From Thermoplasmatota archaeon (GTDB taxonomy: Archaea > Thermoplasmatota > E2 > DHVEG-1), in contig JALOTN010000007.1 in NCBI GenBank assembly GCA_025457885.1, positions 1,726 through 65,725 of the forward strand: DNA of 64,000 bases, in the 5' to 3' direction. The translations under genes and the position numbers were made by a program. Position 1 is the first letter of the stretch; every line of letters starts with the position of its first letter. The notes under the pieces were generated by a model. The model was not told the origin of the DNA. It saw nothing but the letters and a program-made list of their open reading frames with translations, and did not search any database. Below are positions 61,428 through 61,671 of the stretch, piece after piece.

Positions 61428-61643
61428 TTATTCTTTTTTTGTTTGTTGTTTAGGGCTGGTGAAGTCGTTGATGCTGATGGTTCCGTAGTAGCTCCCACTG
61501 TACATGGGGGGGCCTTGGGAGAATGACATTTGTTCGGTGGTGTGTTGGGTGTTATTGAGGATATTTCGTATGTGTTTGGTGTCGAGTCCGAGTTGTTTTC
61601 CGAGGCGTTTTATTTTCGGATTCATGGTCTTTATTTGTTTCAT
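61428..61643 (-). CDS. Candidate precursor peptide A1 of the rSAM/SPASM operon (Cys-free, GPPMYSGSYYGT core)
   Basis: First gene of the operon. Homologous to A2 (56294-56512). Start is ambiguous (61670, 61643 or 61625); 61643 fits a TATA-like box at 61672-61680. Confidence 0.5.
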   Translation of the reverse strand: MKQIKTMNPKIKRLGKQLGLDTKHIRNILNNTQHTTEQMSFSQGPPMYSGSYYGTISINDFTSPKQQTKKE

Positions 61644-61671
61644 GATAACATGGCACACGTATACAATCATA

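What the first reader, a model, noticed from the sequence alone, without database searches (positions are those of the whole stretch)
61428..61670. Two homologous Cys-free small ORFs with a conserved GPP-x-Y-x-G-x(2,3)-Y-G-T motif (candidate precursor peptides A1 and A2)
A1, taken from its third in-frame Met (61625), reads MNPKIKRLGKQLGLDTKHIRNILNNTQHTTEQMSFSQGPPMYSGSYYGTISINDFTSPKQQTKKE. A2 (56294-56512) reads MQTETFYILGQRLGLTKMDIDLLLQQELISNEHPTLWLGPPFYHGGSRYGTFSPQILLNNANEPRKNNTRPR. Both share LG-x-x-LGL, then exactly 23 residues (counted by hand in each), then GPP-(M/F)-Y-x-G-x(2-3)-YGT. The N-terminal halves look helical and amphipathic, like a leader. The conserved Tyr/Gly/Pro stretch looks unstructured, like a core. 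The tails diverge. Neither contains Cys, which points to rSAM-mediated C-C or C-O crosslinking at aromatic residues. Known precedents for SPASM enzymes include three-residue cyclophane formation, PqqE Glu-Tyr coupling and MftC Tyr chemistry. Two diverged copies sitting at opposite ends of the operon is an unusual arrangement.
Basis: seen in the sequence. Interest (0 to 1): 0.8.

Follow-up and report, generated by a model that had tools for sequence, protein, structure and literature searches.

The report
Archaeal splicease-type peptide precursor pair
The two small genes are real, conserved precursor peptides of a large, undescribed archaeal family that sits beside two enzymes related to the bacterial "splicease" PlpX, so they probably yield peptides carrying an unusual keto-beta-amino acid rather than simple ring cross-links.

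Summary
A1 (61428..61643, minus strand) and A2 (56294..56512, minus) are paralogues that bracket a minus-strand operon: two radical SAM (rSAM)/SPASM enzymes, a methyltransferase-TPR protein and a PaaK/F390-like ligase. The likely A1 start is ATG 61643, not 61625 or 61670.

- **Family size:** a profile search finds 206 clusters at 50% identity. The same cluster, with 2-7 precursor copies, recurs in about 70 Thermoplasmata-type and other archaeal contigs.
- **Peptide anatomy:** a short helix-turn-helix leader, then an unstructured core GP-x-x-Y-x-G-x-X-Y-G-T-x-S-I-x-D-F. The second Tyr is invariant and its Gly is 96% conserved. The model shows no PqqD/RRE fold.
- **Enzymes:** both rSAMs are 35-36% identical (E 1e-69) to PlpX, the characterised tyramine splicease that acts at X-Y-G. 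Their best family models are PlpX's own and its sister family.
- **Position X:** X is the least conserved position between paralogues of one locus, and paralogues avoid sharing it (P about 5e-5). In the window A1 has Y and A2 has R.

[quoted passage not shown] Precursor status is strong. The chemistry is inferred, and a cross-link remains a live rival. I rate it a new variant of a known kind.

The parts
61428..61643 (-). Precursor peptide A1 (71 aa, MKQIKTMNPK...). The leader helices are residues 9-30 and the core is G44-F61. A Lys-rich tail follows.
   Evidence: ORF. Orthologues in L001, L003, L005, L010, L017 and others. The MKQ start is conserved. Codon-position pattern fits coding sequence. 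AlphaFold2 gives two helices then coil.
61461..61514 (-). A1 core, GPPMYSGSYYGTISINDF. The putative splice site X-Y-G is YYG at 61482..61490.
   Evidence: Coordinates verified by translation. Y53 is invariant; Y48 is 99%, G54 96% and S57 96% conserved in 128 sequences.
61644..61687 (-). Promoter-like region of A1: a TATA-like box GGAAAATTATTTAAATT (61671..61687) and a conserved 23-nt element TTGTATACGTGTGCCATGTTATC (61644..61666) directly before the start codon.
   Evidence: The same arrangement lies upstream of A1-type genes in 14 other loci, some with only about 40-60% peptide identity. A role as promoter or operator is inferred, not tested.
60317..61372 (-). rSAM/SPASM enzyme 1 (351 aa, start MTPEPHY). 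It has the CxxxCxxC motif and the full set of SPASM cysteines.
   Evidence: Pfam Radical_SAM plus SPASM. Best NCBIfam hits are TIGR04103 at 218 bits and TIGR03913 at 194 bits. 35% identical to PlpX, E 1e-69. Orthologues lie beside precursors in many loci. Conserved cysteines seen in alignment A5.
59257..60351 (-). rSAM/SPASM enzyme 2 (364 aa), a paralogue of enzyme 1 (about 45-50% identity by cross-hits).
   Evidence: Pfam. TIGR03913 at 228 bits and TIGR04103 at 221 bits. 36% identical to PlpX, E 4e-69. Separate orthologues of both paralogues are kept across loci, including distant L011.
57959..59266 (-). Class I SAM-methyltransferase domain (N-terminal, LNLGCG motif) fused to C-terminal TPR repeats (435 aa). 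Tailoring enzyme and/or peptide-binding scaffold.
   Evidence: Pfam Methyltransf_11/23 and TPR_1/2. Found in 24 loci with the precursors. Its role is inferred.
56577..57962 (-). Adenylate-forming ligase of the PaaK / F390-synthetase / CapK type (461 aa). Substrate unknown.
   Evidence: Pfam AMP-binding. NCBIfam hits to DVU_1553-family, PaaK and F390-synthetase-related models, all below cut-off. Found in 24 loci.
56294..56512 (-). Precursor peptide A2 (72 aa). Core GPPFYHGGSRYGTFSPQIL at 56342..56398; X-Y-G is RYG at 56363..56371. It has its own TATA-like TTTAAAT at 56537..56543.
   Evidence: ORF. Orthologous small ORFs sit downstream of the ligase in L001, L003 and L010/L018. Coordinates verified. 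Codon pattern.
54700..56301 (+). Secreted-looking PQQ-like beta-propeller protein, convergent with A2 and overlapping its 3' end by 8 nt. A recurrent neighbour; whether it belongs to the system is uncertain.
   Evidence: Pfam PQQ_2. Homologues occur in 13 loci, at varying positions and orientations.

Best explanation
A1 and A2 are ribosomally made precursor peptides of a large, so far undescribed archaeal RiPP family. Each has three parts. A short helix-turn-helix leader (I/L-Y-x-L-G-x-x-L-G-L-x-K-x-D-I-x-x-I-L) probably docks on the maturase. A variable spacer follows. Then comes an unstructured core, G-P-x-x-Y-x-G-x-X-Y-G-T-x-S-I-x-D-F.

The two adjacent PlpX-like rSAM/SPASM enzymes modify the core. 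The most likely reaction is the one PlpX-type spliceases perform at X-Y-G sites. A tyramine equivalent is cut out of the invariant Tyr and the backbone is rejoined. [quoted passage not shown]

Each genome carries a panel of precursors that differ mainly at X (Tyr in A1, Arg in A2). This would give a set of warheads with different side chains.

The second rSAM, the methyltransferase-TPR protein and the PaaK/F390-like ligase add further tailoring that cannot be assigned. Candidate sites are the 99%-conserved first Tyr and the C-terminal D-F.

Shown: coding status, family, synteny, enzyme homology, conservation pattern, lack of a globular fold. Inferred: the chemistry, the roles of the second rSAM, methyltransferase and ligase, and the biological target.
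For: Precursor status:
- A1 and A2 are paralogues. A profile finds 206 clusters.
- 2-7 copies per locus lie beside the same rSAM pair in archaeal contigs. 25 of 32 loci of at least 6 kb have an rSAM homologue in the flanks.
- Multi-core members repeat the unit Y-K-A-G-T-x-Y-G-T-x-S-P-K-D/E-L 2-5 times behind one leader. One of them sits directly upstream of an rSAM1 orthologue.
- AlphaFold2 gives two helices (residues 9-17 and 22-30, pLDDT about 90), then coil, with pTM 0.37. Foldseek finds no match.

Splicing chemistry:
- PlpX, fetched from the Pleurocapsa plp locus, scores 824 bits on TIGR04103 (cut-off 725) and 395 bits on TIGR03913.
- These are the top two families for both window rSAMs (194-228 bits, against at most 152 for every other SPASM family).
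- Direct BLASTP to PlpX gives 35-36% identity over about 340 residues, E 1e-69.
- Spliceases act at X-Y-G with variable X (PMC11414181, PMC11002830, PMC10849128).
- Here the Tyr is invariant, the Gly 96% conserved and X variable: Y 31%, F 20%, L 12%, R 11%, H 7%.
- X has the lowest within-locus identity of all well-sampled columns (0.04), although it is flanked by columns at 0.96-1.00.
- Paralogues share X less often than shuffles: 6 against 19.6 of 138 pairs, P about 5e-5. One locus has Y, W, L, E, K, R and H.
- Binary splicease systems lack an RRE protein and use a leader helix instead (PMC11414181). That fits the absence of an RRE here.
Against: - No chemistry was measured.
- The rSAMs score far below the TIGR04103 cut-off (about 220 against 725 bits). 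They are about equally close to TIGR03913, named for 'GDL motif' peptides, whose reaction I could not establish. Homology therefore places them in the clade, not in the function.
- Two active-looking paralogues are kept, whereas known splicease systems need one.
- The nearly invariant first Tyr, Thr and Ser (Y-G-T-x-S) would also fit a three-residue cross-link (Tyr-Gly-Thr).
- The precursors show no similarity to Nif11-type PlpA3 or to PlpY.
- No protease or exporter is conserved in the cluster, so release of a mature peptide is unexplained.
- Seven of 32 long loci have precursors without a nearby rSAM.
- The loci in the shuffle test are not phylogenetically independent.
Confidence: 0.5

Rival explanations
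1. The same precursor peptides, but the rSAM/SPASM enzymes install carbon-carbon or carbon-oxygen cross-links instead of excising tyramine. Examples would be a three-residue cyclophane across Tyr-Gly-Thr, or a link from the first Tyr.
For: Two conserved Tyr (Y48 99%, Y53 100%) and conserved Thr/Ser after Tyr-Gly fit an aromatic-X-X3 cyclophane motif. Two rSAM paralogues could each make one ring. Many SPASM RiPP maturases make such links (established knowledge; PMC11851443 lists several families). The enzymes fall below the PlpX-family cut-off.
Against: Named cross-linking maturases score well below the PlpX pair: WgkB at most 133 bits, DynA about 90, PqqE at most 84, MftC at most 135, against 194-228. 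In cyclophane motifs the middle residue is usually free, but here the Gly is 96% conserved, as spliceases require. Enforced diversity at X between paralogues is explained more directly if X is the displayed side chain.
Confidence: 0.3
2. The peptides are precursors of a small redox cofactor, like PqqA for PQQ or MftA for mycofactocin. The cofactor would be carved out of the conserved Tyr region, perhaps for the neighbouring PQQ-like beta-propeller.
For: SPASM enzymes and Tyr-containing peptides make PQQ and mycofactocin. A PQQ-like propeller is adjacent in the window and recurs in 13 loci.
Against: A cofactor precursor should keep its reactive residues fixed. Here 2-7 paralogues per locus differ deliberately at X, next to the invariant Tyr. 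No PqqB/C/D/F or MftB/D/E/F homologues were seen. PqqE and MftC models are weak matches. The propeller is absent from most loci and varies in position. Members with up to five repeated cores do not fit one cofactor per peptide.
Confidence: 0.04
3. The small proteins are not substrates. They would be helix-turn-helix regulators or chaperones (RRE-like) that work with the enzymes on some other substrate.
For: The N-terminal LG-x-x-LGL-x-K-x-D-I-x-x-IL segment is predicted as a confident helix-turn-helix hairpin. Foldseek's weak, non-significant matches include homeodomains.
Against: Only about 22 residues are structured, with pTM 0.37. There is no significant structural match and no PqqD/RRE-type match. 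The most conserved residues lie in the unstructured C-terminal part. Some members repeat the core alone behind a single leader. No alternative substrate gene is conserved in the loci.
Confidence: 0.04

Closest known systems
Spliceotides: PlpA/PlpX/PlpY of Pleurocapsa sp. PCC 7319 (type I) and the binary RhaA/RhaX and RcsA/RcsX systems of Rheinheimera (type II)
   Same: An rSAM/SPASM maturase homologous to PlpX over its whole length (35-36% identity). A precursor with an essential Tyr-Gly preceded by a variable residue. Several precursor genes per cluster. As in the binary systems, there is no separate RRE protein and a helical leader segment is present (PMC11414181).
   Different: - Archaeal host.
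- The precursor family is unrelated in sequence to Nif11/NHLP leaders or to PlpY and matches no Pfam or NCBIfam model.
- Two paralogous maturases instead of one.
- A second, nearly invariant Tyr and a conserved T-x-S-I-x-D-F tail.
- A methyltransferase-TPR protein and a PaaK/F390-like ligase as partners.
- The enzymes score below the PlpX-family cut-off.
- The reaction is untested.
Triceptides and other three-residue cyclophane RiPPs made by rSAM/SPASM enzymes (3-CyFE type), and related cross-linkers such as WgkB and DynA
   Same: Small Cys-free precursors with repeated aromatic motifs. An rSAM/SPASM maturase encoded next to multiple precursor copies. Tyr-Gly-Thr could formally be an aromatic-X-X3 site.
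   Different: The window enzymes are markedly closer to PlpX than to WgkB or DynA. The middle Gly is fixed. The residue before the aromatic is the diversified one.
PQQ (PqqA/PqqE/PqqD) and mycofactocin (MftA/MftC/MftB) pathways
   Same: A SPASM rSAM acts on a Tyr in a short ribosomal peptide.
   Different: No PqqD/MftB-type RRE and no other pathway genes. The Tyr is not C-terminal, and no Glu-x-x-x-Tyr motif is seen in the core. Precursor panels with diversified X argue against a single cofactor.

Membership tests
Spliceotides (tyramine-splicease RiPPs) | Maturase is an rSAM/SPASM enzyme of the PlpX family (NCBIfam TIGR04103; the review PMC11002830 gives InterPro IPR026482) | tested here: inconclusive
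   PlpX itself scores 824 bits (cut-off 725). Window rSAM1 scores 218 and rSAM2 221 bits, well below cut-off. Even so, this family and its sister TIGR03913 are their two best hits by a wide margin. BLASTP to PlpX gives 35-36% identity, E 1e-69. They are homologous and in the clade, but not equivalogs.
Spliceotides (tyramine-splicease RiPPs) | Precursor core carries one or more X-Tyr-Gly sites with variable X | tested here: met
   The Tyr is invariant and the Gly 96% conserved in 128 sequences, while X is variable. Multi-core members repeat x-Y-G-T up to five times. X is diversified within loci.
Spliceotides (tyramine-splicease RiPPs) | [quoted passage not shown] | not testable with these tools
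   Needs co-expression and MS/MS.
Spliceotides (tyramine-splicease RiPPs) | Nif11- or NHLP-type leader, or a PlpY-type partner protein (type I systems only) | tested here: not met
   hhalign of the family profile against PlpA3 and PlpY gives probability below 1%. No Nif11 or NHLP Pfam hit. Binary systems lack the Y protein (PMC11414181), so this feature is not required for the class as a whole.
Three-residue cyclophane RiPPs (triceptides) | Aromatic-X-X3 motif in the precursor | tested here: inconclusive
   Y-G-T/S fits formally (T 76%, S 15%). However, the fixed Gly is not a feature I know of in this class (my own knowledge).
Three-residue cyclophane RiPPs (triceptides) | Maturase belongs to a cyclophane-forming rSAM/SPASM family | tested here: not met
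   No such family is among the 25 best NCBIfam hits of either enzyme. The cross-linkers that are listed (WgkB, DynA) score at most 133 bits, against 194-228 for the PlpX pair.
PQQ / mycofactocin cofactor precursors | PqqE- or MftC-type maturase plus a PqqD/MftB RRE and the other pathway genes | tested here: not met
   PqqE model at most 84 bits (cut-off 381) and MftC model at most 135 bits (cut-off 265). No RRE-like fold in the small proteins. No other pathway genes in the window or related loci.
RiPP precursor peptides in general | Short ORF with a conserved leader and modifiable core, encoded next to its maturase, often in several copies | tested here: met

The most novel reading that the evidence does not exclude
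Thermoplasmata-type and related sediment archaea carry a widespread, uncharacterised RiPP system. Each genome encodes a panel of up to seven near-identical precursors that differ at one programmed position X. [quoted passage not shown] A methyltransferase-TPR protein and an F390-synthetase-like ligase finish the product. This would be a natural combinatorial library of ketoamide warheads, possibly protease inhibitors with different P1 specificities. It would also be the first rSAM-type RiPP chemistry characterised in archaea.
Probability: 0.3. Interest if true: 0.8.

Novelty: new variant of a known kind. Interest (0 to 1): 0.68.

Why it matters
As of 2025, only lanthipeptides had been validated experimentally among archaeal RiPPs. 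rSAM-type clusters in archaea are only predicted (PMC12144867).

This finding defines a concrete and abundant archaeal family:
- a clear precursor signature;
- a conserved four-enzyme set;
- a directly testable chemical prediction, a loss of 135 Da at X-Y-G.

If the splicing prediction holds, beta-amino-acid splicing extends to archaea. It would supply compact RRE-free spliceases, possibly useful for protein engineering. It would also show a natural strategy of diversifying a single warhead side chain across paralogous precursors.

If the prediction fails, the PlpX clade harbours a second, unknown Tyr chemistry. That would be equally informative.

Tried and rejected
- **Pfam and NCBIfam on A1/A2:** no family.
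- **Profile-profile comparison** of the precursor family with PlpA3 (Nif11 leader) and PlpY: no similarity. The idea of a degenerate Nif11 leader was dropped.
- **Pattern scan of metagenomes with the 128-sequence alignment** failed for lack of a conserved stretch. It was repeated with a 30-sequence subset.
- **Solved structures:** the nearest are SkfB, BlsE, PqqE and SuiB-like, at E 1e-18 or weaker. These are uninformative.
- **Foldseek of the A1 model:** nothing significant.
- **Rfam over the operon:** only the tRNA.
- **Sigma-70 promoter and terminator scan:** at background level, and not applicable to an archaeon.
- **Literature:** searches for this family, for the TIGR accessions and for archaeal spliceotides found no description. 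The key survey (Scott et al. 2022, Chem) is not in the library, so I could not check whether these archaeal clusters were already listed there. PMC11626197 says that survey covered archaeal genomes.
- **Conserved protease or exporter:** clustering of neighbouring ORFs found only housekeeping synteny.
- **Cofactor and regulator readings:** considered and rated low (see rivals).

Full report
**1. Observation**

The two peptides align at 32% identity over 62 residues, E 1e-7 for the pair.

LG-x-x-LGL, exactly 23 residues, then GPP holds in both. Neither mature-length peptide has Cys.

Against orthologues in five (A1) and three (A2) other loci, third codon positions differ about twice as often as first or second positions. 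In each comparison, 13-18 codons differ only synonymously. The frames are therefore under protein-level constraint. The antisense ORFs listed have no such support.

**2. Start codon and promoter**

A1 orthologues all begin MKQ.... Upstream of that ATG (window 61643) lies a TATA-like box (61671..61687). Directly before the ATG is a 23-nt element, TTGTATACGTGTGCCATGTTATC (61644..61666). The same arrangement recurs in 14 other loci, some with only about 40-60% peptide identity.

ATG 61670 abuts the TATA-like box and is absent from orthologues. I therefore place the start at 61643 (71 aa). A2 has its own TTTAAAT at 56537..56543, 25-31 nt before its ATG.

**3. Neighbourhood**

The minus-strand order is:
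- A1;
- rSAM/SPASM 1 (60317..61372);
- rSAM/SPASM 2 (59257..60351);
- SAM-methyltransferase fused to TPR repeats (57959..59266);
- PaaK/F390-synthetase/CapK-type adenylating ligase (56577..57962);
- A2.

A PQQ-like beta-propeller gene converges on A2. tRNA-Arg(CCT) bounds the other side.

**4. A large family with conserved synteny**

A word-indexed search with the A1/A2 profile found only 8 proteins. The exhaustive profile search found 206 clusters at E<=1e-3.

Contig look-ups and pattern scans returned 70 related loci. Those with titles are Thermoplasmata, Thermoplasmatales, "Euryarchaeota" or Methanobacteriota MAGs.

tblastn and ORF clustering show how often each partner accompanies the precursors:

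| Partner | Loci |
|---|---|
| rSAM family | 38 |
| Ligase | 24 |
| Methyltransferase-TPR | 24 |
| PQQ-like propeller | 13 |

Most of the other contigs are too short to judge. Among loci of at least 6 kb, 25 of 32 have an rSAM homologue in the flanks.

Distinct orthologues of rSAM1 and rSAM2 are both retained, even in the distant L011. Copy number is 2-7 precursors per locus, often in tandem. The A1...A2 bracket is the arrangement of the window's closest relatives (L001, L003, L010/L018).

No protease or transporter is conserved.

**5. Anatomy of the peptide**

In 128 single-core members:

| Residue (A1 numbering) | Conservation |
|---|---|
| Y53 | invariant |
| Y48 | 99% |
| G54 | 96% |
| S57 | 96% |
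| G44, P45, T55, I58, D60, F61 | 73-88% |

- About 40% of members end exactly at D-F. The long basic tails of A1 and A2 are therefore atypical.
- The leader consensus is (I/L)-Y-x-L-G-x-x-L-G-L-x-K-x-D-I-x-x-I-L.
- AlphaFold2 with this alignment gives two helices (residues 9-17 and 22-30, pLDDT about 90). The remainder has no secondary structure except one short helical turn at residues 58-61, and pTM is 0.37.
- Foldseek finds nothing at E<=1e-3 and no PqqD/RRE-type match.
- Some members fuse two or three whole leader-core units.
- Others keep one leader followed by 2-5 repeats of Y-K-A/S-G-T-x-Y-G-T-V/I-S-P-K-D/E-L. The repeated unit marks the part that is acted on.

**6. The enzymes**

Both rSAMs have CxxxCxxC and a full SPASM cysteine set. 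Their two best NCBIfam models are TIGR04103 ("nif11-class peptide radical SAM maturase 3") and TIGR03913, at 194-228 bits. Every other SPASM family scores 152 bits or less.

To find out what TIGR04103 stands for, I took three steps:
- I recovered PlpA3 from a paper's supplement.
- I located its gene in Pleurocapsa sp. PCC 7319.
- I scanned the adjacent rSAM, which by its position next to PlpA3 and a 56-aa downstream ORF I take to be PlpX. It scores 824 bits on TIGR04103 (cut-off 725) and 395 on TIGR03913.

PlpX is the founding tyramine splicease. [quoted passage not shown] The window enzymes are 35-36% identical to it across about 340 residues, E 1e-69.

They are therefore in the splicease clade, but they are not equivalogs.

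**7. Position X**

The residue before the invariant Tyr-Gly is variable in the family (Y, F, L, R, H...). Within a locus it is almost never repeated:

| Locus | X residues |
|---|---|
| Window | Y, R |
| L008 | Y, R, F, M |
| L062 | F, Y, L, A, R, K |
| L063 | Y, W, L, E, K, R, H |

Across 40 non-redundant multi-copy loci, within-locus identity at X is 0.04. That is the lowest of all well-sampled columns, yet the flanking columns stand at 0.96-1.00.

Paralogues share X in 6 of 138 pairs, against 19.6 expected from shuffles (P about 5e-5). Four of the five other variable positions tested are more alike within loci than shuffles, and the fifth does not differ from them. One caveat applies: the loci are related, so this is not a strict probability.

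This is the pattern expected if X is the side chain the product displays. That is exactly what splicing does to X.

**8. Proposed mechanism**

*Shown:* conserved coding genes; the leader/core layout; co-localisation with two PlpX-clade rSAMs, a methyltransferase-TPR protein and a ligase; an invariant Y-G with diversified X.

*Inferred:*
- The leader hairpin docks on the maturase. This would parallel binary splicease systems, where a leader helix replaces the RRE-like Y protein (PMC11414181).
- One rSAM excises tyramine at X-Y-G.
- The other rSAM, the methyltransferase and the ligase tailor the first Tyr, the Asp or C-terminus, or other sites.
- The products are ketoamide peptides, possibly protease inhibitors as in bacteria (PMC11626197).

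I put about 0.9 on precursor status and about 0.5 on splicing as the chemistry.

**9. Rivals**

- **Cross-linking (0.3).** Y-G-T fits a three-residue cyclophane, two Tyr could pair with two enzymes, and the enzymes are below the family cut-off. Against it stand the enzyme affinities, the fixed Gly and the behaviour of X.
- **Cofactor precursor (0.04).** The diversified panels, the repeated cores and the missing pathway genes argue against it.
- **Regulator or chaperone (0.04).** The conserved part is the disordered one, and cores repeat without leaders.

**10. Known or new**

No Pfam or NCBIfam model covers the peptides. I found no paper describing them.

A 2025 survey states that archaeal rSAM RiPPs are predicted but uncharacterised (PMC12144867). 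A 2024 paper says the 2022 splicease survey covered archaeal genomes (PMC11626197). I could not read that survey, so prior listing of these clusters cannot be excluded.

I classify the finding as a new variant of a known kind: spliceotide-like, with a new precursor family, a dual maturase, new partner enzymes and an archaeal host.

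Noticed in passing
window 61644..61687 (minus strand); also L001, L003, L005, L007-L010, L019, L021-L023, L028, L064 upstream of the first precursor: A TATA-like box plus a 23-nt element (consensus about TGTATACRTGTGCCRTGATACC) directly abuts the start codon of A1-type precursor genes. 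It is conserved even where the peptides are only about 40-60% identical. It reads through in frame as 'VYVCHD', which misleads ORF callers. It may be an operator or a 5'-end element. Rfam has no match.
   Followed up: partly
L005:8409-8795; proteins P0009, P0010, P0012; similar ORFs in L021-L023: Some loci encode two or three complete leader-core units fused in a single ORF. This fusion recurs in several independent contigs, so it is not a sequencing artefact.
   Followed up: partly
L011:8001-8423 (P0091); P0056, P0072, P0080, P0105, P0106, P0126, P0157: Multi-core precursors have one leader followed by 2-5 tandem units Y-K-A/S-G-T-x-Y-G-T-V/I-S-P-K-D/E-L. The L011 neighbourhood is richer than the window's: three rSAM/SPASM paralogues, a B12-binding rSAM, an Rce1-like CPBP protease, an S9/alpha-beta hydrolase and a flavodoxin.
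   Followed up: partly
window 54700..56301 (+): A PQQ-like beta-propeller gene with an N-terminal hydrophobic segment overlaps the 3' end of A2 by 8 nt. Homologues recur in 13 of the related loci, but at varying positions. It is unclear whether this is a functional link or just an abundant paralogue family.
   Followed up: partly
window 61769..61845 (+) and 61966..63470 (+): tRNA-Arg(CCT) lies immediately upstream of the cluster. It is followed by an AbiEi antitoxin / AbiEii nucleotidyltransferase toxin pair. This might mark an integration hotspot or island border.
   Followed up: no
window 50041..54632 (+): A run of genes lies beside the cluster: a PaaK-type ligase with the AMP-binding_C_2 domain, an ATP-grasp_5 protein, S-adenosylhomocysteine hydrolase and a TraB/PrgY/GumN-family protein. 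The TraB-family gene is also near the cluster in L003, L005, L010, L018 and L024. SAH hydrolase next to a methyltransferase-encoding operon may be coincidence.
   Followed up: no
L047:7971-8183 and 13405-13599; L024, L035, L051, L055: 'Orphan' precursor genes have no rSAM homologue within up to 8 kb on either side. This suggests that some precursors are encoded away from the enzyme cluster.
   Followed up: no
window 60317..61498 (minus strand): The mechanical ORF for rSAM1 starts at GTG 61498 and overlaps the 3' end of A1. Orthologue alignments and a GGTGGT Shine-Dalgarno-like motif support ATG 61372 as the true start.
   Followed up: yes
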